From Vicugna vicugna (Eukaryota), in contig MU057375.1 in NCBI GenBank assembly GCA_013265495.1, positions 53,226 to 73,225 of the forward strand: a DNA stretch of 20,000 nucleotides. The letters are read 5' to 3'. The position numbers and the translations under genes were made by a program. Under the pieces are notes generated by a model, which did not search any database, was not told the DNA's origin, and saw only the letters and a list, made by a program, of their open reading frames with translations. The first letter of the stretch is position 1. Each line of letters opens with the position of its first letter. This document shows positions 1 to 20,000 of this stretch, piece after piece.

Positions 1-789
1 AGGATGAGTGTTAAGAGATAAGCATCTTGGAATGGTGAAGGACCCCACACCATTGAAGATGGAGAGAAAGGTGGTACTCAGGGCAGGAGGTGAGGTTTAC
101 TCAGGCCAAGAACTTCCAGAGGAATGCCAACCTGAGTCATAGCCCTCCAGGGCACAAACTAGTGGGATCCACTTCATCCAAACTAGAAATTGATAGAAGT
201 CCCCTCAAAACTGTGTTTGTCAGTTGACTTGTTAATATTTGAAAGAGGGTCTTGAGATTGGTCTCACTGTAATCATGCTACCTCTACCTAGCATAATAAA
301 TATCAAGAAGAAGTTCTAACTGGATTAGAATTATCACATGCCTACTTTACTAACATAATGCAGGGGTCCAAACAAGTGTCTTTGGGCAATCCCTGCCCCT
401 GTGGCTATTGATCTCAAGTCTGATCCCAAGAGGGTGAATATACTACCATGCTTCTGAGGTGGAGACAGTCCCCATAGGAACCAAGCTGTTACATAATGAA
501 ACCCACCCTTTATTTCATATCTCTCTACAACTGTTCAGCCAGTGCATGGTAGAATTTTCAGGGAATGAGAATGGAGACATGGAGTTTTGTAGAACCTGAG
601 TGGGGCATGTTTTACAATTCAAGACCCCTAAAATGGATTTCTTGTGGAAGTGCCTTTGTGTGAGCACTACACACACACTCAGCTGCACAGCTCAGCCTCC
701 TGCATGCCTTGTGATTTTTCTCTTTCTGCCCATGGGCCCCTCATCCTGGAAGTCACTGTGCCAGCCCATGCAGCTCCCTGCTGTTTCTC

Positions 790-961
790 CAAACCATGTT
801 CTCCTCTCACCTAGACTCCCCCTTCTCAACTGAGTCAGTCCCATCAGTCATTGCAAGAGTTGCCTCACTGCTCTCCAATCCTGCTCTGGACCCCTCTGCA
901 CAGCCTCCTCCCACATCTTTTCAAAGTAAAATTTTCCAGTGTCTTCCGTGGCAGGCAGCTT

Positions 962-1003
<42 letters not shown>

Positions 1004-1297
1004 TATTTTTCTTTGTCTTCTTGCCTTGGCTGGCTAACCAGCATTCAATACCTGAAAGCCTCCCTTCCTTCTCCCTTGGTAACCCCCACTTAGAACTGTC
1101 ACCTCTTCCAGGCAGCCATCCCCTGGCTCTCCATCCCAGGCTGGGTCACATCCCAGGATGTGCCTGTGCATATATGCCACTTGGGGTCCTTGATACATCT
1201 TTTAATGATCTGTTTAGGTGTCTGCCTCTCTTCTGAGTGGGGAGTTTCAGGAAAACCTCTCTTAATCTCTCACACCCAGCACATGGCCCTGATTAAA
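790..1297 (+). mobile_element. Ancient L2 3' fragment, interrupted by the (AC)n tract
   Basis: L2-like motifs: CTCTCACCTAGACT, TGTCACCTCTTCCAGGCAGCCATCCCCTG, TCTGTTTAGGTGTCTGCCTC and CCCAGCACATGGCCCTGA. Ends are approximate. Confidence 0.55.
965..1001. repeat. (AC)18 microsatellite
   Basis: Perfect dinucleotide run seen directly. Confidence 0.98.
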
Positions 1298-2520
1298 GCC
1301 TGGCCTTGGGGCCAGGCCAATGACAGTGTTAAGAGGTGCTCCTGGGCTTAGGGGAGCAGCTCCTCATAGGAGGCTCTGCTAGGTGGTCCCAGACCTAGTT
1401 TCTACGGAATCCCTGTTCAGGAAGGCTCAGCTCTCTCCCTGAAATCTTGGGTGTTGCCATGAGGAGCCCAGTCTTTCTTAAACTTATGAAGGTTTGGGGG
1501 GGTGAAGGTGGCTATGCATCAGGCTTGTTACCTCCTCCCAGGCTGGAGCCCAAACAGCTTAATGCTACATCTAGTGGTGGTAGCTGACTAGAGGCAGTCA
1601 TCCGGTGGTGGAGACAGCCCAGCTCTCTGCTGGCTACAAGATGCTAGCTCTCCACCTGGGCTCATGTGTAAAGGCTTCATGCAGTGTAGGAGTCTGAGCA
1701 TGCTGGCCCCTTGGAAGGCTCTTCATGTCCAGGCGCCAAGGTCAGGGATGCACTGGTTTCCAGCCATGAATTGGGCTTCAGAGTCTGAGCCTACTGCCTG
1801 AATCCAGGCTGAGCTGTGGGCAGAGGGATGGGGGATGGACACCCACCAAGGTCCATGGGGCCAGCTAGGGTTCAAGCCCACAGCCAAGGCTCTGCTCTGG
1901 AATGTTTGGCCATGGCGAGTCCCCCTTGACTCCCTGTCAGCCAAGGGAGGCTGAAGAGGGATTCAAGGAGGTGAGCTGCCCAACTGGAAAAATGTGAGGA
2001 GCTGACTTTCTGTGAAATAGACTGCACCAGGAGCTGACATGGAGTGAAAAAACATTTTATTCTATTGCCGCAAGGTGGTGTTTGCGCTCCGGGGTGCACT
2101 TGTCCTGCTTTTATCTCTTTTCTGCCTGCACATGCTGTGTTCATTTCTTTGTTCATGAGGCTTACATAACACCACTAGCTCATGGGTACTTCTACTTTAT
2201 TTTTTCTAAAACTTATATAAGTGCGTATGCATACAAACATCATTTACCTTATACTACAAGCATGTTGTTGTGGCCTTGGCCTTGAGTCCCACGACCTACT
2301 CATTCAAGGTCACTAACATTCCCCTTGTATCCCAATGCCTGGCTCAGTGTCCCTCCCCATCTTTCTCCCAGCTGTCCTTGGCCAGGCTCCATGAAGTGCT
2401 CTCTGCCCAGGGCACGGGGTCACGGCATGAGATACTCAGCAGCTGAGGTCAGCAGGCACCAGGGTCTCTAGGAACCTCTGAAATCAGTCCAAGGCCAATA
2501 CTTTTTTCATCCTCTTGTCC

Positions 2521-3127
2521 CTGGTGAACACGAGGAGTGAGGCCCCGGGCTGCCAAGTCTCTGAGCGCCGCAGCCCAGGCAGTTCTCTACCACCCTGCTG
2601 GCCTGCCTCCAAGCGTCCCTCCAGCTGGGAGTGAGGGGCACCCAGTGCCCTCTCTGAGCCATGAACAGGAGAGCACTACACGGCAAGGTTGAGACCCTGC
2701 AGTTACCCGGTTGAGAGGAGGGTAGAGGAAGGGAGTCAGGCAGGTATGGGAGGGGGCATCCTCCACAGTTTGCTCCTCATGGGGGCTCAGACACACAGTG
2801 ACCCTGGAGCCACTGTGCCTGCCCAGGCTGCTGCTGCCACAACCTCTGCTGCCTCCAAACAAGCTTCCTGAGCCATGGGAAGTGCCCCCACTGCACTGGC
2901 CTGGGCTTGGGCTGCCAACAATGCTACAGCCACAACCAGAGTAGGAGCAGGGGCCTGACAGCTGGACTGGGCTGGGATGGGGTGGGCGCACGACACAGAG
3001 GTTGGCATGCAGGGGAAGATGCACTGATGGCCTTGGCTCTCCAGGGGAGCAGCCTGGGACTGCACCCAAACCTGCGCCTCCCCATTCGGTGCTGCCCTTG
3101 GCACACACCCGGGGGACATGCAAGCAC
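2521..3127 (+). promoter_or_regulatory. Fossil (deaminated) CpG-island promoter/5'UTR of the GRID1 copy
   Basis: GC-rich but CpG-poor: manual count of 16 CpG in 2521-3480 and none in 2761-2940. TG/CA-rich runs such as GCTGCTGCTGCCACAACC resemble decayed (GCC)n. It lies directly upstream of the exon. Boundaries are approximate. Confidence 0.7.
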
Positions 3128-3206
3128 CTGGAAGAGCTAATGCTGTGGCTTCTACCCTTGATATGCCAATGCATGTCGGTGCAGGCCAACTCCATCATCC
3201 ACATCG
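3128..3206 (+). pseudogene. GRID1: Degenerate copy of GRID1 (glutamate receptor ionotropic delta-1) coding exon 1: signal peptide and start of the N-terminal domain
   Basis: Translates as LEELMLWLLPLICQCMSVQANSIIHI(G). The human GRID1 N-terminus, as recalled, is [27 protein letters not shown], giving 20/27 identity. The start codon position reads CTG (3128-3130). The segment is 79 nt and ends in phase 1 at a donor-like G|GTGAAT (3207-3212). It lies within ORF-track entry 3002..3232. Confidence 0.92.
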
Positions 3207-3797
3207 GTGAATGTGGAGGGCAGTGGGGCTGAGGCTGGGTGGAGGCCCCAGTGGCTCACCCGGTGTGCAGAGTCCAAACATGGCTGTTCCCTGGGCTGAG
3301 GGGCTCAGCAGGTGGTTCTCCCCCAAAGGGCTGTGCCACACTGCCTGGCAGAGGAGATGTGCATGGGCCATGCTGCTGTCCCACTGGTTCTCACTGTTTC
3401 CCAGGATTCAAATCCCCACTCGGGGCCCTGAAGCCTCTGCCACCACATAGGGCCCAGGCTTTGAGGAACCTCTGGCTAGACGCACCTCCAGACCTGTGCC
3501 CCTGGCAGGGCTGTTGGCTGGATAGAACTAGCCCTTACCTTCAGTTAGAGCAGCGTGGGATGGGGGCAGACAGGACCTGGGGTTTCCCCAACTTGGCAGG
3601 GCAGGATCAAAGTGTCACATGCTGCTATGCATGAATGTATGTCAGTGGGTGTTTTCAGCATGTCACTGTGTACATGCCTGGCACCGTGTTGGTGTCACTG
3701 CAAGAAGGTGTTGGGGTGCGTGGGGCCATCAGAGCCTGTGTTGGTGTACACACTAGTGTCAGCATTTTAGAGTGGACAGTGTCTGCCTGTTTCCCTG

Positions 3798-3820
3798 GTG
3801 TGTGTGTGTGTATCTCTCAA

Positions 3821-3852
<32 letters not shown>

Positions 3853-3856
3853 TGTA
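3798..3856. repeat. Interrupted (TG)n microsatellite
   Basis: TG runs at 3799-3810 and 3821-3844 plus a degenerate tail. Confidence 0.95.
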
Positions 3857-3992
3857 TCTGTTTGTGGCAACAACAGCCCAATCCTGGACAGGACAGTCCC
3901 AGAGTTTCCCAAGGCCCAAATGTTGGGGGCAGGCAGATGGTCTGGGTGGTGGGAGCCAGGGGAGAAGCCTGAGTAGTGATGTGTTAGGGGAA

Positions 3993-4006
3993 TGTGTGTG
4001 TGTGTG
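3993..4006. repeat. (TG)7 microsatellite
   Basis: Seen directly. Confidence 0.85.
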
Positions 4007-4668
4007 GAGGAGATGAGCAGGATGAGACCAATGGACAGAGAACCAGGAGAGGAAAGAAGAGGAGAGGAGGAGGGGGCCTGGGGATAAGAAGTGTGGGGGA
4101 GTTGGTAACAGCAAGGGAGAAAACCCAGAAAGTTGGGTTGGGTTGGGGGACTAACAATGGTTGCTTTAGGGGAGCTCCTCTGCAGTAGCTTTTCAGGAAG
4201 TTGGGAAAGACCAGCAAGCCCAGAGAAACTGGGGGTTGGGAGCTATGAGAAGGCAGGAATGATGGGACTGATCAGGCAGGGGTGTGAGGGGCTAGGGGTG
4301 TGCTTGGTGTGCTGCAATCCCCAGGAAGAGACCAGGGCCAAGTCTGATTCCCAGTGGTGGGTGGTGGTGGCTCGGGTCTTGAGATCAGCCTCATGGCTCT
4401 GGGTATAGCATGGAAGGGGATCCCCCTCCTCCTGCCCAGCAGCCAGGTCCGGGGGTCATTGGGTCCAGCCCTGGGACTGTGGTGAACCTCATGGCCTGAA
4501 GAGGAGGGAGAAGTCTGGAGTTGTCCAGGCTGCACAGCCAGGCTCTGATGAGTCTGACTGATCTCAGGTGGAAGTGCACAGAGTCTGCCAAGGTGGTGCT
4601 AAGAATGCAAAGGGCCAGCTGGAGGCCATCCTGGAGGAGCTGTTCATGGTTTAAGAGCAGCACATTCT

Positions 4669-6315
4669 GAGGAGGGGCCAAGATGGCAGAGTAGAAGGAC
4701 ACTCATAGCTCAGCGTCTCCCACAAATACACCAAAGCTCACTTCCACGGACCCACCCAGCCAACCGGAGCACCTGCTGAACTCCAACAGAACATCGCCCT
4801 CTTCAAAAGACAAAGACACCACGAATCTGGTAGGAGAATAGGAAAAAAGAAAGAAGAAAAAGCAAAACAGTGCAGACCAGTCCTGTGGGGAGGAAGTAAC
4901 AAAGGAGGAATAACGCTTGTTCACTGGGCCTCTCCCTCTCCAATGGAGAGGTCAGCAGGAAGGAAGGGGAACCTCCGAGGCTTGGATCTGTACAGATCAG
5001 AACTAAGTTAAATGGGCACAGAGGGTCTCTGCTACTCCCAGCCCTAGAGGCAAAGTGGCAGGTGGGGGACAGGACAGGCTACCTGAGCCAGGAAGAGGAC
5101 TGGGGCAGTTGCACTGAGACATCCCCAGGGGAATGCAGGGTGCTATGCGCTGTGGATGAGTGGGTACACAGGGCAGAAAAACCTGGGCCCTCCATAAAAC
5201 AACATGGCTGATGTGCCCTGGGGGGGAAGGGTGTATACCCCCATCTCTGAAAACCCACGGAAAGTTTTCAGGGGAAGAGAGGCAGGCCTTGGGCACAGCC
5301 GCCATATCCTCCAGTGCTTAGCATCCAGGTGGGGGCGGGAGCAAAACCTGCATCTGCACCGAAGGGCTTAGCAGCCTCAAAGGCCAGATGGAGACTTGTC
5401 TACAGCCCAAGGCAGATAGAATCCTTCCATCCTGGTCCCTCAGAGAACTTGCTCCACCAAGACAAACAAGGAGCTGTGTTTTGGCCTGGAGCAAGGACAA
5501 GGCTGTTCCTCGGTCTTCCCGGAGCCCACCTGTGGAGCCCCAACCTGAGGCGGAGCACGCAATGGCACAGAGCAGCAGAGCGACAGGCGCCAGGAGAGGG
5601 AGGGTGGCCTCCCGCCCTTCAGGCAGGAACACAGCCCCTGGCCATGGTGCTGGGAGGGGGCGCGACCCGTCCTCCTACCTGGCCAGTCTGCAACATTTGA
5701 CTGCGGCAACAGGAGGGGCAGTGACCCGCCCGCCCACAGCAAAGGAGAGCTACACCTGACCCAGTGTTGGGAGAAGATGCGATCTGCTTGCCGACAGGCA
5801 CTGGGGGCAGCAAAGTTGAGGGCAACAACGGAGGACCTCTGGAAACAGCAAGCTGAGCTTCCAAAACAGGACAAAGACAGAAAGACTTCACACTAAAAGC
5901 ACACAGACTCCAGGAGAACACCGACCCCCCTTTTTTTAAATCTGTTTTTACCTGTTCTATTTTCTATTACCCTCTTAATTTTTACTTCTTAATTCATTTT
6001 TATTTCTCTTGGGTTTTGATGTCCTGTTATTGATTAGACACAGGTTTCAAATACATCTTTTCACTTTTTACCCTTTTTAAAAAGATTTTAAAAGGATGTC
6101 TCAACCCGATTGATATTCTGCTTCAACTCGCTCTTCTATTATTCATTATACACTGTTTTCAAACCTTTTTTCTCCCTTCTTTTAAAATCATTCTCTCTCT
6201 CTCTTTTTTTTTCTTTTTTTCCTAAGTCTTATTCCTAAATAGGCATTAGATAGATAAACTCCTTAAGGACCACAATAGATAACTGATACTCCATAAAGCA
6301 CAGTGCCAGAGAGGT
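4669..6315 (+). promoter_or_regulatory. L1 5'UTR/internal Pol II promoter with a YY1-like site
   Basis: CCAAGATGGC at 4678-4687 is the YY1 core typical of L1 5' ends. A GC-rich, CpG-containing block spans about 5500-5830 and a T-rich block spans about 5930-6230 before the ORF1 ATG. Confidence 0.85.
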
Positions 6316-7217
6316 ATGAGCAAGATGAAGAAGCAGAGAAACCATTCCCAATTAAAAGAACAAGAGAAATCCCCTGAAAGAAAGATCAATGAAAAAGACA
6401 TCGATAACCTACTAGATCAAGATTTCAAAAAAGGAGTGATCAAAGTGCTGAAGGAATTAAAAGAGATAGTGTTTAGAGGTATAAATATATCAAAAATGAA
6501 ATTGAGGCTATAAAGAAGAGCCAAGTAGAATGGGTAAACTCATTGACTGAGATGAGGAATGATCTAATAGCTGTGCTAAGCTGACTAGATAATGCAGTGG
6601 AATGAATTAGTGACCTAGAAGACAGGACAATAGAAAGCACCCAATCAGAAGAGCTACAAGAGAAACAAATAAAAAATAGTGAAAATAGCATAAAGAGGCA
6701 TATATGGGGTAATATAAAGTGTGCCAATCTACACATAATAGGGATCCCAGAAGGGGAAGAAAGATCAAAGGGGATTGAAAAGGTTTTTGAAGAAATCATG
6801 ACTGAAAACTTCCCAAACTTAAAGAAAGAATAGGATATCCAAGTACAGGAAGCTCAGAGGGTCCCAAACAAGAAGAACCCAAATAGACCCACACCAAAAC
6901 ATATAATCAAGATGGCCAGAGTCAAGGATAAAGAAATGATTCTAAAGGCAGCAAGAGAAAAGCAAAAAGTAAGTTACAAGGGAACCCCCATAAGGCTCTC
7001 AGCTGATTTTTCTACACAAACACTACAGGCCAGAAGGGAGTGGCAAGATATATTCAAAGTCCTGAATGAAAAAAAGATGCAGCCTAGGATACTTTATCCA
7101 GCAAGGCTATCCTTTAGGATAGAAGGAGAGATAAAGAGTTTCACAGAGAAGAAAAAGCTGCAGGAGTTTAGCAACACTAAACCCATGCTAAAAGAAATAT
7201 TGAAAGGTCTATTCTAA
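6316..7217 (+). pseudogene. L1 ORF1p (coiled-coil, RRM, CTD RNA-binding protein), disrupted
   Basis: Runs from MSKMKKQRNHSQLKEQ to ...ARREWQDIFKVLNEKKMQPRILYPARLSF. There is a frameshift near 6480-6490 and in-frame stops TGA 6582, TGA 6603 and TAG 6831. Confidence 0.95.
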
Positions 7218-7617
7218 ATAGAAAAGCAGCAGGATGCTATAGAAATGAGAAACTCACAACTGGAAAGGTGTTAACTAATGAATTACAAATAAAATAAACA
7301 TGAAATTATAAAAGAAGACATGCAAATCATTGAGAGTGGGAGAGGGAGGCAGGGAAATATAGAAGATTTTTTTTCTTTCTTTTAAAAAATTTTTTATCGG
7401 TAGGATGGTTTTGAGATCATGTTACTATCAGTTTAATAAAAACAGTTATAGTAATGGGCTAATAGATTTACGAAAAAGGGTAACCACAAGCCAAAACTTA
7501 CAAGGGAGTCACAAAAATTAAAATCCATGATAATACAAAGGAAAATTACCAAACCACAAAAGGAAGAAGAAAGGGACAAAGAGGAAATACCAAATCAACA
7601 GCAGAAATAAGTTCAAA

Positions 7618-10600
7618 ATGGCAATAAACACACATCTATCATTAATTACTGTAAATTTTAATGGACTAAATGCTCCAGTCAAAAGACATAGAGTGGCAGA
7701 CTGGATAACAAAGCAAGAACCTTCAATATGCTGCATATAAGAGACCCACTTTAGGGAGAAGGACATATACAGATTGAGAGTGAAAGGATGGAAAAGGATA
7801 TTCCATGCAAATGGAAAAGCCAAAAAAGCAGGTGTTGCAGTACTGATTTCAGACAAAATAGACTTTAAAACAAAGGCCATAAAGAAAGATAAAGAAGGAC
7901 ATTTTATAATGATTGAAGGAGTGATACAAGATGAGGATATTACACTCGTCAATATATATGCACCCAATATAGGAGCACCTAAGTACATAAAACAATTACT
8001 AACAGAGATAAAGGAGGATATTGATGGGAATACAATCATAGTTGGAGATTTTAACACTGCATTAACATCACTGGGCAGATCTTCCAGACAGAAAATAAAG
8101 CAACAGAGAAATTAAATAATACAATAAAAAACCTAGATTTGGTGGATATTTTCAGAGCATTACACCCACAAAAAATAGGGTATACATTCTTTTCAAGTGC
8201 ACATGGAACATTTTCCAGGATTGATCATGTACTTGGGCACAAAAGAAGCCTCAACAACTTTAAGAAGATAGAAATTATCTCAAGCATCTTTACTCACCAC
8301 AATGCCACAAAACTAGAAATCAACAACAGAGAAACAAAGGAGAAAAAAAGAAAAGCATGGAGATTAAACAATATGTTATTGAAAAAACAATGGATCAATG
8401 AGGAAATCAAAGCTGAAATTAAAAAATACCTTGAGACAAATGATAATGAAAGCACAACCACTCAAAACCTATGGAAAAAAAGAAGAACAATCTCAAACAA
8501 TTTAACCCACTAGCTGAATGAATTAGAAAAAGAAGAACAAAAAGCCCCAAAAGGCAGCAGAGGGAAGGCAATTATAAAGATCAGGGAGGAAATAAATACA
8601 ATAGAGATTAACAAGACCACAGAAAAGATCAACCGAACCAAAAGCTGTTTTTTTGAAAAAGTAAATAAAATTGATAACCCTCTGGCAAAACTCACAAACA
8701 AGAAAAAAGACAGCACAAATTAGCAAAATAAGAAAGAAAAATGGAGAAATTACAGCAAATAAAATAGAAATACAGAATACCATACGAGAATATTATGAAA
8801 AACTATATGGAACAAAAATGGATAACCTAGAGGAGATGGACAAGTTTCTGGAAACATACTGTCCACCAAGACTGAATCAGGGAGAAACTGACCACTTGAA
8901 CAATCTGATCACTAGAAAGGAAATAGAAACAGCAATTAAAAACCTCCCTACAAATAAAAGTCCAGGGCTGGACCACTTCACCAGGGAATTCTACCAAACA
9001 CACAAAGAAGAACTCATACCAGTCCTTCTCGAACTCTTCCAGACGATTGAAAAGGAGGGAATACTCCCAAATTCATTCTATGAAGCCACCATCACCCTGA
9101 TACCAAAACCAGGCAAAGACACTACCACAAAGGAGAATTATAGGCTAATATCACTGATGAACATGGATGCCAAAATCCTCACCAAAATATTAGCAAATAG
9201 AATCCAACAACACATAAAAAAGATTAGACATCATGACCAAGTGGGGTTCATCCCAGGGACACAAGGGTGGTTCAACATATGCAAATCAATCAAGGTAATA
9301 CATCACATCAACAAGAGAAAGGACAAAAACCCATGATCATCTCAATCGATGCAGAAAAAGCATTCGATAAAATTCAACACCTATTTATGATAAAAAACTC
9401 TCGCCAAAGTGGGTATAGAGGGAACATATCTCAACATAATAAAAGGTATATATGACAAACCTACAGCCAGCATAGTACTCAATGGTGAAAAACTCAAAAC
9501 CTTCCCACTAAAATCTGGGACAAGACAAGGATGCCCACTAACACCACTCCTATTCAACATAGTCCTGGAAGTCCTAGCCACGGCAACCAGGCAAGGGAGA
9601 GAAATAAAAGGTATCCAAATTGGAAAAGGAAAGGTAAAGGTGTCACTATATGCTGATGACATGTTACTATATATTGAAAACCCTAAAAGTTCCATACAAA
9701 AACTACTAGAGCTGGTTAAAGAATCCAGCAAAGTAGCAGGTCACAAGATTAATGTTCAAAAATCAGTTGCATTTTTTTACAGTAACGATGAATCAACAGA
9801 AAAAGAAAGTAAAGAAACAACCCTCTTTAAAATAGCATCCAAAGTAATAAAATACCTAGGAATAAATCTAACCAAGGAGGTGAAAGAATTATACACAGAA
9901 AACTATAAACCATTGATGAAGGAAATTAAAGAAGACTCTAAAAAATGGAAAGATATCCCATGCTCTTGGATTGGAAGAATAAATATTGTTAAAATGGTCA
10001 CAATGCCCAAGGCAATCTACAGATTTAATGCAATTCCGTTTCAAATCATACTGGACATATTTCACAGAACTAGAACAAATCATAATAAAATTTATATGGA
10101 ATGATCAAAAGACCTAGAATTGCCAAAGCATTACTGAAGAGAAAGAAAGAGGCGGGAGGAATAACTCTCCCAGACTTCAGACAATATAGAGCTACAGTCA
10201 TCAAGACAGCATGGTATTGGTACAAAAACAGACATATAGACCAATGGAACAGAATAGAGAGCCCAGAAATGAACCCACAAACTTTCGGTCAACTTATCTT
10301 CGACAAAGGAGGCAAGAATATACAATAGAATAAAGACAGTCTCTTCAGCAAATGATGTTGGGAAAACTGGACAGCAGCATGTAAAACAATGAAGCTAAAA
10401 CACTCCCTTACACCATATACAAAAATCAACTGAAAATGGATCAAAGACTTAAACACAAGACAAGATACAATAAAACTCCTAGAGGAAAACATAGGCAAAA
10501 CATTATCTGACATACATCTAAAAAATTTTCTCCTAGAAGAAATAAAAGCAAGAATAAACAAATGGGACTTAATGAAACTTACAAGCTTCTGAACAGCAAA

Positions 10601-11351
10601 GGAAACCATAAGTAAAACAAAAAGACAACCTACAGGATGGGAGAAAATTTTTTCAAATGAAAACAACAAAGGCTTGATCTCCAGAATATATAAGCAGCTC
10701 ATATGACTCAATAAGAAAAAAATAAACAACCTAATACAAAAATGGGCAGAAGATCTAAACAAGCAATTCTCCAAGGAAGACATACAAATGATCAAAAGGC
10801 ACATGAAAAAATGCTCAATATCACTAATTATCAGAGAAATGCAAATCAAAACTACAATAAGGTATCACCTCACTCCTGTCAGAATGGCTGTCATTCAAAA
10901 ATCCACAAATGACAAATGCTGGAGAGGCTATGGAGAAAGGGTAACTCTCCTTCACTGCTGGTGGGAATGTAGTTTGGTGCAGCCACTGTGGATAACAGTA
11001 TGGAGATTACTCAAAAGACTAGGAATAGACTTACCATATGACCCAGGAATCCCACCCCTGGGCATATATCCAGAAGGAACCCTACATCAAAATGACACCT
11101 GCACCCCAATGTTCATAAAAGCACTATTTATAATAGCCAAGACATGGTAACAGCCTAAATGTCCATCAACAGATGACTGGATAAAGAAGAAGTGGTATAT
11201 TTATACAGTAGAATACTATTCAGTCATAAAAATGACAATGTAACTCCATTTGCAGCAACATGGATGTTCCTGAAGAATGTCATTCTAAGTGAAGTAAGCC
11301 AGAAAGAGAAAGAAAAATACCATATGAGATTGCTTATATGTGGAATCTTAA
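7618..11351 (+). pseudogene. L1 ORF2p (APE endonuclease, reverse transcriptase, C-terminal CCHC), disrupted
   Basis: ATG 7618 begins MAINTHLSLITVNFNGLNAPVKR. EN motifs are NIYAPN, GDFN and SRIDH; RT motifs are QGCPL (~9526) and YADD (9649-9660). The zinc knuckle [18 protein letters not shown] (~10917-10970) has its second Cys changed to Tyr. Lesions include stop TAA 7738, further stops, frameshifts near 8100, 8700, 9330, 9400 and 10050, and a deletion near 8474. Confidence 0.96.
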
Positions 11352-11660
11352 AAAAAAAAAAAGAACATAAATACAAAACATAAGCAGATTTAAAGACATA
11401 GACTACATACTTGTGGTTGCCAGGGGTGAGGATGGGGGGAAGGGACAGACTGGGATTCAAAATTTGTAGATACTGACAGGCATATGTAGAATAGATAAAC
11501 AAGATTATACTGTATGTCACAGGGAAATATATACAAGATCTTGTGGTAGCTCCCAATGAAAATGAATGCAAAAATGAATATATGTATGTTCATGTATAAC
11601 TGAAAAATTGTGCTCTACACTGGAAATTGACACAGCATTGTGAACTGACTATAATTCAGT

Positions 11661-11697
11661 AAAAAAAAAAAAAAGAAAGAAAGAAAAAAAAAAGAAA
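11661..11697 (+). repeat. L1 poly(A) tail with GAAA interruptions
   Basis: A14 G AAA G AAA G A10 G AAA. The polyadenylation signal reads AGTAAA (11658-11663) rather than AATAAA. Confidence 0.93.
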
Positions 11698-12649
11698 TAC
11701 CAGCATAAGTCTCTTGTTTTCTTCTCCGGAGGTTGGCTGTGGTATTTGGTAAAAATTTTTTCCTTCAAGCCATAAATTCCACCCCAGTGAATGCGGTCTC
11801 TAATGTGACTCCACTTAAACTTGGCTGCCATGGTGAGGATGCTCTCTCTCTGCCTGAGAGGCACAGACACCATTCATCCAGGGCCAACTTTCCTCATGCA
11901 GTTCCTCACAGATCAGATAGGCACTGAGCATTCTCTCTTATTCTAAGGCAATCTGCAAAACCTAAGGCTTTGAGAAATTTAAGTCTCAGTTTTCCTTACT
12001 AGATGTTATTAACAAAGGCAAAGAAAGAATTACTCTGAGTGTTAACATCAGAAGTGTTTTTCAGTTCACCCACATGTACAGAGAGAACTAGATATTATTG
12101 TTATTGTTGCATCAGCATTTCACTGAGACAGTGATTTTCTTTACACTTTTGTTTAGTCATATAGGCAAACCTAAGTAGACAGTGATGTAGCAAGTAGGGG
12201 TGATAGCTGTGCAATGCTCCTTACAGGAAGGTAGGCTGTCATTTTGTCACATCAGCAGGTTCCACCTCATCTGGCTCTCTTCTCTTCTGTGACATGCATT
12301 CACATAAACAAATATTTGATTTTCACTCTTTCACTGGGTGCTAAGTTGCGCCCCTCTTCTGTGCCTGCCTGGGTGTATAAGTGGAAGTGTGCCTTGGCTT
12401 AGAGACCACATGAACATGTGTATTTTGAGTGTGTGAGTAAACTCATACAGTTTCAAAATCCTTTAGGATGCTAGGACTTATAAAAAGAAATCCAAAGAAA
12501 AATCCATGAACAAAATAGAAACTTGTTCTAACAAGTTAAGTCATAAACTTATAATTTTTAACTGTTTAATTTTATATTACATTTGCTTATAATAAGGAAT
12601 ATTGCTAGAAAAAAATTCCCATAACTTTCAATGATCTCAATTTCTTTCT

Positions 12650-12847
12650 CCTAAGGGCATTGGGGTTTGGTTAATGTTCACTAAGGGCTTCAAGTGTGGC
12701 TATACTATTTTATTTCTTAAAAAAGATACAAATCAATTATGATAAAATTTGTAAAATTTAAGAAAACTGGATGGTAAGTACATGGATATTTGTTATGTTA
12801 TTTTTTAAGTATTTTTTTCTGCTTGGAATATTTCACAATAAAATAAT
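12650..12847 (+). mobile_element. Ancient L1ME-type 3' end fragment
   Basis: AACTGGATGGTAAGTACATGGATATTTGTTATGTTATT...TTGGAATATTTCACAATAAAA resembles L1ME 3' termini as recalled. Confidence 0.7.
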
Positions 12848-15449
12848 GGAAATATACAAAGATGCTTAGATTATTCATGTTTTCCTCTTTTTCTGTTGCT
12901 ATAGAAAGTATTTATCTTTTCTGGAGTATTTAGAAAAAAACTTGGATCCCTATGGACAGTAGAGTGATCAAGAAATATGGAAAGTTACAGATGAGGTAAG
13001 GCTGGTAACTGAAATAATTTTGAAAAAGGTAGCTTGTACACACACGAGTGGACATCACAGCTGAGATGATTTGCCACACTTAACCTGTGTGCATGTGTAT
13101 GTACATAACTTTACAATGGAGAACTCTAATATCCATGGAGTACCCACTTCTTAGGATGAGACATACCCCTTCCCTCAGTGGTGAGTCTCCAACTACCAGG
13201 CCCCAGAGATTGCATGACTTTGGCCTTCTCCCCTAGCAGTGTGCATCAATGAGACATGAACTGGGAGAGACCCAGTAGCCAACATGTAGCACACCAGGAT
13301 TATTCCTGATCCATAGGCTTGTCTCTCCACACCGTCTCATTTTCTCCTTGTCCGGGTTCTGAGCTTTCCTAATACATGGCAGAGGCTTTAGTTTGAATTG
13401 ATCTACTCTCTGGGAAGCATAGGTTTAGCACAAAAGGATGGTGACTATTCTGGAGCACATGTAGATGGCTACAGTCTTCCGTAAAGTCACCAGGAGTCAA
13501 CTGTCTTCAGGGGTTATGGCTATAAGCACCTTCAGGCAAAACACCACATAACCTGGCTGTGGCCTACTTTATCCCTTGAGGTCATTAGGACATCGTATAT
13601 GAAATATGTCAATTAAAATGTAATCTAAATTCCTAACTCATACCCTATATTTACTCAACAGATGGTTCACTATAATTAAAGGCTTTATATGGAGGAATTT
13701 AGGGTTAGGAGAGACTGAGAATGGAAATCATAGTTTCCTTAACAGAACACCCTAGCTCTTAACTGATAATTCTTGAAATACAGGCATTATACTTAAGAGA
13801 ATGAGAACATAAATTATTCTGGTTTATTAAACTTGAGATTTAGGTCCAAAGCTGTGGATGATGGCAGACTACAATGATGGGAACTAAGTACATTGAGATT
13901 CAAAGGTCTTCTTAGAGAACAACTTTATTCCACCATTTCTGACATTTTTGGTCCTTGTTGTAAAGCCCAGTTCTGTTTATCCCAAATGCTCTTTCCTTTT
14001 CTGCCTCCCTTCAGAGTGGATCTTGCCAGGAGCTTTGAAACACCTGTGAGTGTGAAACACTTACCCACTGAGTGCCCAACCTTCATATGCCCCTAAAAAA
14101 ATGTACTTAGAGTAACCATTTTCATTATCAAAGTTTCCTTATTACTGAATAAACAAGGATTTTTAAAGAAAAAATTAACTAAACCACATGTGACACATTT
14201 TAAGATCTTTGATGTGACTTCAGAGAATTAACTATAGGAACACAATGTGGTGGGAGAGATACTTTGAAAGGAAGACATTAGACTTTAGGAAATCTGCAAG
14301 TATTGCCAAGTCACAGTAAAACTGATAGGAAATCAGAGTCATAAAAATAAGCTAAAATTTTAGAAGACATGTTAAGATTTTAAATATCAATATAATACAA
14401 ACATTTTTACCTGTTTATATTTCTGTTTGATCAACTCATATTTAGGTATATCTTTCTACTGATCCTTTTAAAAAAATATGCTGTTCACAAGCAGAGATGC
14501 TGTGGCTGTCCTTACATGAATGTCACATGTCTGAGTAGTATTGATATGTTTTTGTTGAGGAGGCCTGAGAATAGCATACAGACAAATAAGCAACACCCAG
14601 ACAAGCAGAAAAGGCATTGGTTTACAAGTGATGGGGCTTGAGCTTTAACCCTATTTGGTTAATCATAAAATTTGCCCAAACAGGACCTTTTGAGGGTGTC
14701 CTCAGTTTCTCAACTAGACATGATACTGGGAAGAAAGGTGTAAGCCAGAACTGTCAAGGGCAAACTGGGATTGAATGTCATCTCATCTTGTCCTCTCTGT
14801 GACCTTGGTGTGACTTGTTTCTCTAGAAGGAAATGAACTGAGTAATGCCAGGTAGTCAAACACCTGGGTCTTATCCCAACAGCGCCTTCTTCATAATTCC
14901 CCTTTGCCTGAAATGGAACTCAAAAGTGTACACAATGACAATTCCAGGCCAGGGGATTGTCCATTCCCACCTGGGATTTGGCCCCAGACTCCAGTGTGAA
15001 ATCATTTTTGTAGATGGGGATTGGATCTTGGCACTGGGTGCCTTATCATTCTATGGACGAATTTAAAGCAAGTGCAAGGGAAGGAAAGAGAGTTTCTGTC
15101 TAAGACCTAGAACTGAGAAGGGTTTATTTCCCCATCCTCAAGCCACTTATGGCCAGATAGCTTCTCCCCAGGAGCATTGACCACCAGTTGTGCAGACCAA
15201 AGAGAATTTCAAAAGGGGCTGAATCTTGAGGGAAAAAAATAGACCAATTAATAAATTGGTAAGGTTGTTGTAAATTTTCAGGCTAATATATATAATGGAC
15301 CCAGGTGAGGGCTGGCAAATAATAGGTAGTAAGTGAATGTGAGCTTTTATATTCACATTTTCATGTGGTCTTCACGTGGCCAGCTCTTAAATGTTGTTGT
15401 TTGACAGAGTCCTAATTATTGTCTTACTTATTCTTCCTGAGAAATTTCA

Positions 15450-16412
15450 TGCATCCTCTTAGCTCTAATTATTACCTCTATGCTGATGACTCCCAAATCC
15501 ACTGTTCCCAGTGCTCCTCACCTGACATCTCAGCATGGACAAGCACCTTCTGCCCATAAGTGAGTTTCTTACCTGCCCCAATCACACAGTTGTCCTGCAT
15601 CCCCAGTCCCAGCGAGTGGCACCACCAGCCCATAGTTGTCCAAAGCCAAGACCTAGGGCTTATCCTTGACTCCCACTTTCTCCACCTGTCTCCATATATC
15701 AAGACCTCTCAAGGCTGTCTCCTGCAAAAATCTTGAATGTATTCACTTTTCTCAACCCCCATCTCGCACCACTCCTAATTCTCATATGGATTTTTGAAAT
15801 AGGCTCCTGTCTGGTTTCCCTTTAATTGGCTCCCTAGAGTTCTTTCTACTCTTTGCAGCTTTGCATCTGATCCTTTGCTTCTCCCCTCCCAGAGCTCCTT
15901 ATTGACCTTTGGGCAAAGTCCACATTGCTTAAGGTGACTTATAAGGTCGCTTGTGATTTCATCTTTGCCTACTTCTCCAAACTCCCTCCCCAACCTTCCC
16001 CACTTATCAGGATCCAACTACACTGAATTTCTTTGGTTTCTCTAAGGCACATGTGCTGTCTGTTCTCCAGAGGCTTTTTCACATGCTCTATGCCTGGGAC
16101 CTCCTGCTAGCTCTTTACTGCCTGCTCCTCCTCCTCACCGAGTCCTCTCCTTACACACCCCTGCTCCCCAGAAACCTGCCCTGATCCTCCAGGTATGAGG
16201 AAGGAGCCCCTCCAAGGTTCCCATACCTCTACTCCTTTCACAGCTTTCCTTACATAGGAGAGAGATTTACCTGTTAACTTGTCCATGTTCCCCAGCAGAT
16301 TATAAGTTCCTCAAGGGCAGAGATGAGTCACTGTGGTATTTCCAGTCCTTAGAGTCACATTGGCCACATGGATGGTGTTCAATAAATATTGATCGATTGA
16401 ATGAGTGAATGA
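15450..16412 (+). mobile_element. LINE-2 3' portion
   Basis: RT relic TATGCTGATGACTCCCAAATC (YADDSQI, 15479-15499), AAGACCTAGGGCTTATCCTTGACTCC, and terminus TCAATAAATATTGATCGATTGAATGAGTGAATGA. Confidence 0.88.
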
Positions 16413-17276
16413 TTTTATTTGTTTATTGAAATGACTAAGTAAATGATTCAGGTGTGATGTATCAAGAAGATAGCCTTGTGATTGATGCACCACAGGTGCT
16501 ACCATTAGTAATGAGGGTGCTAAGCCTGGAGAAGTCTGAGGGACTTGGCGGAGGTTGGCGGTGGGTGTAGGAATAGCTGAGTCCCTCAACTATGATCATG
16601 AGCTGTCCCAGTGTAATCCAAGCAGCACAGCTGTTGGTTTCAGGATGGTTTAGAATGGTTTTAGAATGTATTAAGACTTTTTGGTAATTGTTTGCTTTTT
16701 AGATTACTTATAAAATAGATTCCTTTCTTACACATTGATAGTTGAATAAGTTATTTTAGATAGCAAGCTAAATACCAGAAATTGTGGCCTTTTAAGTTGA
16801 AAATTTGCACTGGAAAACCTGCAGAGTAGCAAAAGGCAAGTCTAAACGGGGTTGACAGAGTCTATGTCAATAGATTGCCAGTGGACTACTCAGTCCAAAC
16901 ACACTTCACTTCTCCGATTTTTCTTTTTCAGAAGAAAATGCCTGGTCTTTTAAAGGCTGTTATACATTTTTCAGTTTCATGTGTCACAAAACAAAATATC
17001 TTCTTTGTAAATAGCAGTTGGGAAGTACATACGATTTAGTAGCTCAGCTGTATAAAGCGGGCAAATTCTTTTGTCCTAAAGTTCTTTATAGGCACAAATT
17101 TTTGATGCTTTGATTTATTTTTAAAGCCAAGTTGGAATGAAAATAACTAGAAACATTTAGAGTCTAGTAATTTTTAATTCACCTTAGTTTGGCCATAGCT
17201 AAGCTAAAGTTTGTATTTATTTTTAATCTATTGAAAAATGATTTGTGGTAATAGTGTAAATCACATTATATTGGGA

Positions 17277-17326
17277 ATATATGTGTATATATATATATGT
17301 ATATAAATATATATACACATATATAT
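17277..17326. repeat. (TA)n-rich simple repeat
   Basis: ATATATGTGTATATATATATATGTATATAAATATATATACACATATATAT seen directly. Confidence 0.9.
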
Positions 17327-17436
17327 TTATTTTTAAATAATTCTGCTGTTAAAGATCACTGAAGTAGATGATCTCTATAGCAAGTTCCCTTTTGGTCTCC
17401 CCCCAACTCCAGCACATTTCTCTTTGAACAGTAATT

Positions 17437-17577
17437 TCCCATTTATTATTTTTCTCCCCCTCTGAACCATGAGTTCCTTCAAGGAAGGACCCAGTATTAT
17501 TCACCTTTGAATTCCCTGGTCTGGTATTGTACCTAGAATTTAATAAACTCTCATTAGTCTGTTAAGGAATACATGAT
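17437..17577 (+). mobile_element. L2 3'-end fragment
   Basis: CTCTGAACCATGAGTTCCTTCAAGGAAGGACCCAGTATTATTCACCTTTGAATTCCCTGG matches the L2 terminal pattern. Confidence 0.7.
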
Positions 17578-17676
17578 GAAGCATCCAAACAATCACAAGG
17601 TTAGTTTAAGCCCTTCTTATCAGCACATGAAGTTGGTAACAAGAGCTTTGTATCTTTTAAAAAAAACAATTACTAA

Positions 17677-17756
17677 TCTGTCTTGCTTCCCATTTGCTCT
17701 CCAAAGCCTATCACAATGTCTGGCAGAAAATAGGTAATTAATATATTTGTTAAATA
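17677..17756 (+). mobile_element. L2 3'-end fragment
   Basis: TCTCCAAAGCCTATCACAATGTCTGGCAGAAAATAGGTAATTAATATATTTGTTAAAT. Confidence 0.7.
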
Positions 17757-18330
17757 TTCACTGACTTCAAATTTAAAGTTTTACTAACTTATCTTCACCT
17801 TTCTCTAATGAATATGATTTTAAAATGTTTTTACTATATCTGCAATGAGTAAAATAATGAGATAGGAATGTGGCAAAATGCATCCTAGACTGGTCTGTCT
17901 CACTGTCATATTTTTACATTTTTGTTCTCTAAATATTGACAGTACTATATGCTTAGGGACTTAATTATTTACATGTGTTAAGAAATAGAGTCATTTGGGT
18001 AAAAACCACATGCTTTGCTCAGCTCTTTATCACAGGGAAGTACAAAATATAACATCTAAAGTCACTTTCCCAGTGCGGCCTTGAGGAAATTATGGTACAA
18101 TTGGTGTGAATCAAAAAAAGCTGTAACATCCTTACCAAACTCTCAGCCTTGTACCTAGGGGCATGATGTGAATAACTAGTATTGCAATACTTCCTGCTAA
18201 CTTACTTTACAAGGTGACTTGTAGTGGGAAAATATTACAAATCTTATTGCCACACTAGGGAAGGGTTTCAGTGACCAGGCCCATGTTTTGGGATTTCCCA
18301 GGCTTCAACAATACTAAGAGTTAGGGTGGA

Positions 18331-18545
18331 TTAGGTACTTAATACGTGCTACACTCTGTGGCAAGCTCTTTCCACAAATTATCTCATTTAATCCTCACTA
18401 CAAGCCTTTGGATTCTATACCATTATTTTCCCCATTTTTTTCCAGAGAGGTAAGTGAGACTTACAGTCATACACCTGACATCATCAGCAAATGAGTGGTG
18501 GAGTGTAGATTGAAAGCACTTCTGTGTAACTTGCGAGCTTTTATC
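18331..18545 (-). mobile_element. MIR SINE
   Basis: ATTATCTCATTTAATCCTCACTACAAGCCT...ATTATTTTCCCCATTTTTTCCAGAGAGGTAAGTGAGAC is the MIR core in antisense. Confidence 0.8.
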
Positions 18546-18664
18546 AGTACTTTTCTTGATGCTTAGTTTGAATTAAAATTCTGAAGTATTTCTTATTGAT
18601 CTGAAATGAAATAGTGACATCTCTATCAGTGTCAAAGAACTTATTTATCATTTATTTGTAAGGG

Positions 18665-18760
18665 ATTTTATAGTCTTAAAGATGAGAAATCAGAGGCACA
18701 CAGACAGGCAAAGTGACTTCCCTTAGATCACAGGCTATACTGGCAGAGCTTAAACCAGCA
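18665..18760 (-). mobile_element. MIR SINE core fragment
   Basis: TTAAAGATGAGAAATCAGAGGCACACAGACAGGCAAAGTGACTTCCCTTAGATCACAGG. Confidence 0.75.
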
Positions 18761-18829
18761 CTATTCATTTACCATTTGTCATTCTTCCTTAAATTTGGGT
18801 TTATTTATCATTCATCCAAACTGTGTTTG

Positions 18830-18889
18830 TTTTGCTTGGCCAGCATTCTAGGAGCTCAATATGTATTTGTTGAACAAATGAATGAATGT
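18830..18889 (+). mobile_element. L2 extreme 3' end
   Basis: TAGGAGCTCAATATGTATTTGTTGAACAAATGAATGAATG. Confidence 0.7.
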
Positions 18890-18904
18890 GTTAAGGCTGA
18901 CAAT

Positions 18905-19780
18905 ATGTCCTATATTGGCACTGAACTAAAGAGCATGTCTTTACCCTCAGGAAGCTGACAGTCTAGCAGGGGAACTTGCACAAATGCTTCCATGATCATG
19001 TGCCTGACTGCCCTAAAGGATGTTCAGTATTCAGAAGGGTATGCCAGGCAAAGCAATGGCACAGACCTGAGAAGGTCAAGGTGGACAGGGAACTACACAC
19101 TGTGTGTTGAGTGCTGCTGGAAGTAAAAGTGAAGGGGGTTGATTCTGGATGCCTTGTATGCTACATGAGAGAGTTCACTTATTCTGTTGGGAGGAGAGCC
19201 ACCATAGCATTTAAAACAGAGAAATTATATGGTCAAATCTATATTTTAGAAGGACCCCTGGGTGGTTGTGCAGTGAATCAACAAATCAACCACTTGGGAT
19301 TTATAGTCTAAAGCTAGAGAGATAATTGTGACCTGGACTAGTGCTGTTGTAATAAGGTTAGCAAGGAGGAGGAGGATTTAAGAAGTATTTAGAAGAGGTC
19401 CAGGGCTAGAGATAAAGAAGAAAAATCATTAGCTTATCAGTGGTAGTGGATACCCTAAGAATGAATGAGAGCTCAGCAGGAGAGTTTGGAGAGTTGGGAA
19501 TGAGGAAAGCTGATATTCAAGGGACAGGAAGAGGGGTGTTAAACTCCACATGATCATAGGAAGAAATAGTCATAGAGGGTGTGGTTTCTGATAAGCCAAG
19601 GAATAGGTGTTTGAAGAAGGAAAAAGTCTATAGTCTCAGCAGTGGAGACAATAGATAAACACTCATTATTCAGGATTTCTAGATGACAAAGGGGTGAGAT
19701 AGTAAATAACAGCTTAAGGAGAACCTGGAGGCAAGCGAGGGATTTTATTTTTGTTTTAAGAGGGGGAAGACTGTAGCAAG
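18905..19780 (-). mobile_element. Degraded LINE-2, antisense
   Basis: Purine-rich, with antisense L2 motifs CCCTCAGGAAGCTGACAGTCTAGCAGGGG, GGATGCCTTGTATGCTACATGAGAGAGTT, TATATTTTAGAAGGACCCCTG and GACCTGGACTAG. Ends are approximate. Confidence 0.7.
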
Positions 19781-20000
19781 GACACAGGCTGAAGCCAATA
19801 AGAAGCAGAGGTTGAAGACAGAGAAAACGTAAGTCCTCTGACTCCTCACCCAAGAGTTCTTATTCACAGTCTCAGCTGCCTGGAACCAAAATTAGTTTTA
19901 TGTTTGAGTCTTCTAGGATACATCAGAGTAGTCCCCCTTGTCTAATAATGTTCACATTTCCTACCATCTCAGAAACTCTTTTCAAACACTAATGAATTCT

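What the first reader, a model, noticed from the sequence alone, without database searches (positions are those of the whole stretch)
2521..4668. Hidden non-processed GRID1 5' fragment (promoter, exon 1, intron 1): duplicate pseudogene or disrupted locus
Seen: a 79-nt exon translating to LEELMLWLLPLICQCMSVQANSIIHIG, followed by a GT donor and intron-like DNA. Knowledge: this matches the GluD1 (GRID1) N-terminus as recalled (20/27), and GRID1 is normally a highly conserved single-copy gene. Inference: a donor rather than exon 2 follows, so this is a DNA-level copy and not a retrocopy. Seven amino-acid changes, including loss of the initiator, indicate released constraint. It is either a lineage-specific partial duplication or the remains of a broken native GRID1 5' end. 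I know of no description of either.
Basis: partly seen in the sequence, partly recalled or inferred. Interest (0 to 1): 0.8.

Follow-up and report, generated by a model that had tools for sequence, protein, structure and literature searches.

The report
Decayed duplicate of GRID1 first exon
This mammalian DNA holds a worn-out extra copy of the start of the brain receptor gene GRID1, while another, better-kept copy sits elsewhere in the same genomes, so it is an ordinary gene-fragment relic and not a broken gene.

Summary
Window 3128-3206 (+) is a 79-nt exon-like stretch. A GT follows at 3207, and the protein match stops there. The copy has CTG where the initiator should be, and a donor that reads GTGAAT. 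Its surroundings have lost their CpGs (o/e 0.17-0.18 at GC 0.61-0.62). A decayed full-length L1 lies 1.46 kb downstream.

The main new result comes from laying public DNA contigs of three coded organisms on 2521-3790 at 80% likeness. All 3 of 3 DNA runs hold the window's own contig. Each also holds a second contig that matches the exon (12-14 differences in 82 nt) and an upstream block, 2537-2602, at nearly the same spacing. That second copy keeps Trp-11, reads GTGAGT at the donor, and shows CG where the window shows TG or CA. Further contigs hint at more than two copies.

I could not test where either copy lies, whether the second copy is the working exon 1, or whether either is expressed. 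This is an ordinary kind of feature and of low to moderate interest.

The parts
2505..2604 (+). Upstream block shared with at least three other contigs per run. In one of these contigs it lies 550 nt before the second exon copy, against 526 nt in the window.
   Evidence: tables 5, 7 and 8: pieces 2534/2537/2538-2600/2602/2604 with 8-13 differences. The loose ends before 2534-2538 still resemble the window by eye.
2501..3500 (.). GC-rich but CpG-depleted stretch around the exon, read as an eroded CpG island.
   Evidence: GC 0.61-0.62; 17 CG against about 96 expected; TG 100 and CA 94 against about 58-60 expected. In one search the loose ends of paralogous contigs show CG where the window shows TG or CA.
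3128..3206 (+). GRID1 (GluD1) exon-1-like coding stretch, 79 nt, with CTG in place of the initiator. The first in-frame ATG is at 3140.
3207..3212 (+). Splice-donor-like GTGAAT. The consensus G at +5 is replaced by A. The second copy reads GTGAGT.
   Evidence: table 7 (loose end behind 3210 in X17).
3213..3368 (+). Start of intron-like DNA with patchy homology to other contigs (3193-3237, 3311-3368).
   Evidence: table 8, records 14 and 21.
3798..3866 (.). (GT)n microsatellite.
4669..11697 (+). Full-length but broken L1 retrotransposon with an A-rich tail. It is inserted downstream of the fragment and is not part of the GRID1 homology. The 5' limit is approximate.
   Evidence: fragmented ORFs. 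Transposase_22, Tnp_22_dsRBD, Exo_endo_phos and RVT_1 at 6606-10101. A-rich array at 11661-11697; no target-site duplication of 8 nt or more found.

Best explanation
The stretch is a non-functional relic: a DNA-level (unprocessed) partial duplicate of the 5' end of GRID1. It carries upstream or 5'UTR sequence, coding exon 1 and the first part of intron 1. After the copy was made it was no longer protected as a promoter CpG island. Inferred: it became methylated in the germ line and lost nearly all CpGs by deamination. Shown: it has no ATG initiator, a weakened splice donor, and an L1 downstream. At least one other, better-preserved copy of the same module exists in the same genomes. Inferred: that copy supplies the working first exon. 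Inferred: the event is old, tens of millions of years, because outside short blocks the two copies are under 80% alike.
For: The peptide matches GluD1 residues 2-27 (E 1.5e-6, 19/26). The match ends at the GT. CTG replaces the initiator, and there is no upstream in-frame ATG. CpG o/e is 0.17-0.18 at GC 0.61-0.62, with a TG/CA excess. In 3 of 3 DNA runs from three coded organisms, a second contig (687, 1028 and 1032 nt; depth 0.7-2 times that of the window's contig) matches 3129-3210 with 12-14 differences. In two of those runs the same contig also matches 2537-2602, with 8 differences in 66 and 550 letters between the two matches against 526 in the window. In the third run its 30-letter end does so. 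That copy has G at 3159 (Trp-11, as in the solved chain) and continues after 3210 so that the donor reads GTGAGT. By eye, loose ends of the paralogous contigs show CG at four or more places where the window has TG or CA (table 7). The depths match genome coverage, so contamination is unlikely. No Pfam family other than L1 domains was found in 136 ORFs of the window.
Against: The second copy is not shown to be intact. Its first codon is outside the aligned piece. In the 20-nt middle part where differences are listed, it has as many amino-acid changes against the solved chain (C13F, V16L, plus S17P in one organism) as the window has (W11L, V16M). Contigs resembling human DNA are silently dropped by the tool, so the true exon 1 could be a third, unseen copy. 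The genomic position of either copy is unknown because no genome is held. An ATG at codon 5 could in principle start a shorter signal peptide, so loss of function is inferred, not shown. No native GRID1 DNA from another species could be fetched for comparing flanks.
Confidence: 0.7

Rival explanations
1. The window holds the native, still-used GRID1 first exon of this lineage. Translation starts at the ATG of codon 5 (3140), giving a shorter signal peptide, and the other contigs are the pseudogene copies.
For: An in-frame ATG lies at 3140, followed by a hydrophobic stretch and the conserved SIIHIG. A GT donor is present. In the visible middle part, the second copy has as many residue changes as the window.
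Against: There is no CpG island (o/e 0.17-0.18). The donor has A at +5 while the other copy has the consensus G. Trp-11 is lost here but kept in the other copy and in the solved chain. The paralogous contigs are richer in CG.
Confidence: 0.1
2. Gene disruption: this is the broken native 5' end, and GRID1 is inactivated in this lineage.
For: The initiator is lost, the donor is weakened, CpGs are lost and an L1 is inserted.
Against: A second exon-1-like copy with a consensus donor is present in all 3 DNA runs laid. From general knowledge, not tested here, loss of this conserved receptor in a mammal would be unexpected.
Confidence: 0.05
3. The GRID1 5' module is part of a small multi-copy repeat (a segmental-duplication family, or a fragment carried along by a mobile element). 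The window is one of several dispersed copies, not one of a simple pair.
For: For 2534-2604, two (X1, plus a 32-nt contig) or three (X2, X17) non-window contigs per run were laid, and the summed depth is 3-5 times single copy. A further contig is collinear at 2922-2958 and 3311-3368 (326 letters between, against 352 in the window) without matching the exon at 80%. Another contig covers 3193-3237.
Against: Short contigs can be fragments or alleles of one locus. The upstream block may simply be an old interspersed repeat. There are no terminal repeats and no second copy inside window 1-4700.
Confidence: 0.13
4. The resemblance to GluD1 is chance.
For: The match is only 26 residues. The same peptide also gives weak summed matches to TAL-effector repeats.
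Against: The GluD1 match is a single-stretch E of 1.5e-6 at the exact N-terminus, ending at a GT. No single TAL stretch passes the threshold (stretches 0 in nearly all rows). An independent paralogous copy in the same genomes keeps the same reading.
Confidence: 0.02

Closest known systems
GRID1 (GluD1) coding exon 1, compared here with solved GluD1 chains 9jrd, 9jrf and 9jre
   Same: The stretch encodes the signal-peptide region and the first mature residues (LWLLP..ICQC..SIIHIG). The match starts at residue 2 and ends where a GT donor follows.
   Different: CTG replaces the initiator, and seven of 26 aligned residues differ, including Trp-11 to Leu. The donor is GTGAAT, and there is no CpG island.
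Unprocessed (duplicated) partial pseudogenes and gene fragments in mammalian segmental duplications
   Same: The copy is at the DNA level and keeps flanking non-coding sequence and the exon-intron junction. It carries disabling-looking changes, and another copy lies elsewhere in the genome.
   Different: Only the 5' module (about 0.9 kb seen) is shared, as far as could be tested. The size, ends and place of the duplication are unknown.
Processed pseudogene (retrocopy)
   Same: Both are non-functional copies of a gene's coding sequence.
   Different: Exon 1 is not joined to exon 2. A donor and intron-like DNA follow the exon instead, and homology extends upstream of the coding start. The only A-rich tail nearby belongs to the L1.

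Membership tests
GRID1/GluD1 exon 1 homologue | Peptide similarity to the GluD1 N-terminus | tested here: met
   query 2-27 to chain 2-27, 19/26 identical, E 1.5e-6.
GRID1/GluD1 exon 1 homologue | The coding match ends at a splice donor, not continuing into the next exon | tested here: met
   the match stops at chain residue 28. GT at 3207.
Functional GRID1 first exon | ATG initiator at codon 1 | tested here: not met
   codon 1 is CTG, and the first in-frame ATG is at codon 5.
Functional GRID1 first exon | CpG-island promoter context (recalled for the human gene, not tested on a native locus here) | tested here: not met
   CpG o/e 0.17-0.18 across 2501-3500.
Functional GRID1 first exon | Transcripts spliced from 3206 to exon 2 | not testable with these tools
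   No RNA holder was listed. The one RNA-labelled run laid gave 0 reads, which is no test.
Unprocessed duplicated pseudogene fragment | A second copy in the same genome | tested here: met
   a second contig matches the exon in 3 of 3 DNA runs, at a depth comparable to single copy.
Unprocessed duplicated pseudogene fragment | Homology extends into non-coding flanks in the same order and spacing | tested here: met
   2537-2602 and 3129-3210 lie on one contig, with 550 letters between against 526 in the window. The loose ends resemble the window. On the intron side only short pieces match.
Unprocessed duplicated pseudogene fragment | The parent gene is intact elsewhere | tested here: inconclusive
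   the second copy keeps Trp-11 and a GTGAGT donor. Its start codon was not seen, and it has changes of its own.
Processed retrocopy | Exons joined without introns, with a poly-A tail and target-site duplication | tested here: not met

The most novel reading that the evidence does not exclude
The promoter and first-exon module of GRID1 has been amplified into a small family of three or more copies in this mammalian lineage. At least one extra copy, possibly this one using the ATG at codon 5, then serves as an alternative promoter and first exon, or as a non-coding transcript start, for GRID1 or a neighbouring gene. Alternatively, the working signal peptide of GluD1 has itself been remodelled in this lineage (C13F, V16L).
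Probability: 0.1. Interest if true: 0.5.

Novelty: new member of a known kind. Interest (0 to 1): 0.25.

Why it matters
Mostly this matters for annotation. A decayed exon-1 look-alike can mislead gene predictors and ortholog pipelines into reporting a GRID1 with a lost start codon. Equally, a GC-rich true exon 1 that assembles poorly can be replaced by this copy in gene models. It is also a clean example of how a CpG-island promoter erodes once it is copied out of its working context. If several copies exist, it would be a small case study of promoter and first-exon duplication at a gene usually treated as single-copy.

Tried and rejected
- **Whole-genome search:** no genome is held for this window, so copy number and synteny could not be read from an assembly.
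- **Protein collection searches:** a 40-aa query (lengths 'longer') and the 95-aa stop-to-stop frame (lengths 'near') found no candidate sharing three words. This gives no information on annotated GluD1 proteins of any mammal. An earlier try with 27 aa was too short, and one call had an out-of-range E-value.
- **Metagenome scan:** a 23-letter motif of the exon's 3' end returned 1 locus. It is a high-GC bacterial contig matching by chance, so no native mammalian GRID1 DNA was obtained.
- **RNA:** no RNA holder was listed. The RNA-labelled run X24 gave 0 laid reads of about 1 in 100 read, which is no test.
- **Further GluD1 exons:** Pfam on 136 ORFs of 45 aa or more found only L1 domains and one sub-threshold DUF5485 row.
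- **RNA families and tRNAs:** Rfam gave 0 matches and ARAGORN gave 0.
- **TG/CA excess as a measure of the former CpG island:** background windows give similar 'ancestral' estimates, so it is only suggestive.
- **L1 target-site duplication:** none of 8 nt or more was found.
- **TAL-effector rows in the PDB searches:** these are sums of weak repeat matches and I rejected them as spurious.
- **Earlier findings of this scan:** nothing relevant.
- **Paper searches:** 'GRID1 + pseudogene', 'GRID1 / partial duplication / exon 1' and 'GRID1 + camel' listed nothing on a GRID1 partial duplicate. I saw listings and abstract starts only.

Full report
**What is in the sequence.** The window is mammalian-looking genomic DNA. 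Its base composition is patchy, CpG is depleted throughout, and there are microsatellites. A 7-kb L1 lies on the + strand from about 4669 to 11697. Its reading frames are broken, but they still give Pfam hits to Transposase_22, Tnp_22_dsRBD, Exo_endo_phos and RVT_1. No whole genome is held for the window.

The exon-like part is 3128-3206 (79 nt), and 3207-3212 reads GTGAAT.

**Is it GRID1, and is it more than chance?**
- A phmmer search of the 27 residues against all PDB chain sequences puts three GluD1 entries on top (9jrd, 9jrf, 9jre). The match is query 2-27 to chain 2-27, 19 of 26 aligned residues identical, E 1.5e-6 to 2.5e-6, as one stretch.
- I then read the same frame through from 3002 to 3229 (76 aa). 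The GluD1 match still covers only chain residues 2-28 (E 8e-6). The similarity therefore ends at the GT, as expected for an exon followed by an intron and not for a retrocopy.
- Both searches also list TAL-effector chains. Those rows are sums of many weak matches to a repeat, with 'stretches 0' in nearly all rows and single-stretch E-values of 26 or worse in the alignment shown. I treat them as spurious.
- Allowing for about 1,500 non-overlapping 27-mers in six frames of 20 kb, the GluD1 match still has an expectation near 2e-3 (my arithmetic). It also sits at the exact N-terminus and ends at a donor.

**Signs of decay.**
- Codon 1 is CTG. Upstream the frame is open back to a stop at 2942 without any ATG, and the first ATG is codon 5 at 3140.
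- Seven of the 26 aligned residues differ from the solved chain, including Trp-11 to Leu.
- The donor has A at +5, where the consensus has G.
- The 1 kb around the exon is GC-rich (0.61-0.62) but has a CpG observed/expected of only 0.17-0.18. There are 17 CG against about 96 expected, with TG (100) and CA (94) well above expectation.
- The TG/CA excess alone is not decisive, because ordinary parts of the window give similar back-calculated values.

**The decisive test: is there another copy?** A search for public runs with 2521-3790 listed 20 DNA holders from three coded organisms and eight studies. It listed no RNA holder.

I laid the contigs of one DNA run from each organism (X1, X2, X17), plus one RNA-labelled run (X24), on 2521-3790 at 80% likeness. 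Each of the three DNA runs contains the window's own contig, with 0, 0 and 2 differences over 1,270 nt. Two of these runs may be the source of the window, so this is not independent support.

Each DNA run also contains a second contig (687, 1028 and 1032 nt) with these properties:
- It matches 3129-3210 with 14, 12 and 12 differences in 82 nt.
- In two runs it also matches 2537-2602, with 8 differences in 66. The record has 550 letters between the two matches, against 526 in the window. In the third run (X1) only its 30-letter end lies on that block.
- Its depth is 0.7, 0.8 and 2.0 times that of the window's contig. It therefore belongs to the animal's genome and is not a trace contaminant.

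In the middle of the exon, where the tool lists differences, the second copy reads as follows:
- G at 3159: Trp-11, as in the solved chain.
- T at 3165: Cys-13 to Phe.
- C at 3173: Leu-16, where the window has Met and the solved chain has Val.
- A at 3178: silent.
- C at 3176 in organism A only: Ser-17 to Pro.

After 3210 the second copy continues so that its donor reads GTGAGT. The next letters resemble window 3218-3230 by eye, which suggests an 8-nt length difference and not an end of homology. The alignment begins at 3129, one base after the C of the CTG codon, so the first codon of the second copy was not seen.

**Direction of decay.** I compared the loose ends printed with the window by eye. 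The paralogous contigs remain recognisably similar beyond the aligned pieces, before 2534-2538, behind 2604 and 2659, and before 3036. At four or more places they show CG where the window has TG or CA. At one exon position (3177-3178) the window keeps the CG and the second copy has CA. Overall the window copy looks like the CpG-eroded version of a CpG-richer sequence.

**More than two copies?** For the upstream block 2534-2604, X2 and X17 each have three non-window contigs. X1 has two, plus a 32-nt contig and the 30-letter end of its exon contig. The summed depth there is three to five times single copy. Three other contigs are relevant:
- One is collinear with the window at 2922-2958 and 3311-3368, with 326 letters between against 352 in the window. 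It does not match the exon at 80%.
- One 142-nt contig covers 3193-3237.
- One covers 3036-3067.

These may be further paralogues, fragments or alleles of one locus, or an old interspersed repeat under the upstream block. Contig fragments cannot settle this. Inside the window there is no second copy.

**What it most likely is.** It is a DNA-level partial duplicate of the GRID1 5' module: upstream sequence, coding exon 1 and the start of intron 1.
- Shown: the GluD1 homology, the exon-intron structure, the missing ATG, the CpG loss, and the presence of at least one other copy with Trp-11 and a consensus donor.
- Inferred: that the other copy is the working exon 1; that this copy is silent and methylated; and that the event is old. 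Outside short blocks the copies are under 80% alike, which with fast CpG decay suggests tens of millions of years.
- The three coded organisms are nearly identical here, so the copy predates their split.

**What remains open.**
- I could not place either copy in the genome.
- I could not obtain native GRID1 DNA from any mammal. The one metagenome hit was a bacterial chance match.
- The protein collection gave no candidates.
- RNA could not be tested. No RNA holder was listed, and X24 gave 0 reads, which is no test.
- The laying tool silently drops contigs that resemble human DNA, so a third, more conserved exon 1 could be hidden.
- The second copy's own residue changes mean I cannot call it intact.
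- The ATG at codon 5 leaves a small chance that the window's exon is still usable.

**Comparison with what is known.** Unprocessed partial pseudogenes and duplicated gene fragments are common in mammalian genomes. This is a new instance and not a new kind. Three full-text searches listed nothing describing a GRID1 5' duplicate: GRID1 with 'pseudogene'; GRID1 / 'partial duplication' / 'exon 1'; and GRID1 with 'camel'. I saw only the listings and abstract starts. Statements about the human locus (CpG island at exon 1, WAPL as neighbour) are recalled and were not tested here.

**Verdict.** Interest is low to moderate (0.25), mainly as an annotation trap and as an example of CpG-island erosion after duplication.

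Noticed in passing
window 4669-11697 (+): A full-length but degenerate L1. ORF1 and ORF2 are split into many pieces, the 5' region (about 4669-6000) is GC-rich, and there is an A-rich tail at 11661-11697. No target-site duplication of 8 nt or more was found.
   Followed up: partly
window 3128-3208 (peptide): The GluD1 signal-peptide-like stretch (LLPLICQ...) gives summed weak matches to the 34-residue repeats of TAL effectors in PDB searches. This is a coincidental resemblance and no single stretch is significant.
   Followed up: yes
window 2534-2604: This 70-nt block is present in more copies than the exon itself. There are two or three other contigs per run, and the summed depth is 3-5 times single copy. 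It may be an old interspersed repeat lying upstream of GRID1 exon 1.
   Followed up: partly
window 3666-3705: A 40-nt piece matches a short high-depth contig in two runs (4 differences, depth 2.5-3.5 times single copy). It is probably a small repeat.
   Followed up: no
window 965-1001 and 3798-3866: An (AC)n and a (GT)n microsatellite flank the fragment in inverted orientation, about 2.8 kb apart. This is probably coincidence.
   Followed up: no
window 11700-20000: AT-rich DNA without any Pfam, Rfam or tRNA hit. No lineage-specific tRNA-derived SINE was detected anywhere in the 20 kb.
   Followed up: partly
L001 2056-2078: The only metagenome match to the exon-end motif lies in a high-GC bacterial contig, inside an open reading frame. 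It is a chance 23-mer match and unrelated to GRID1.
   Followed up: yes
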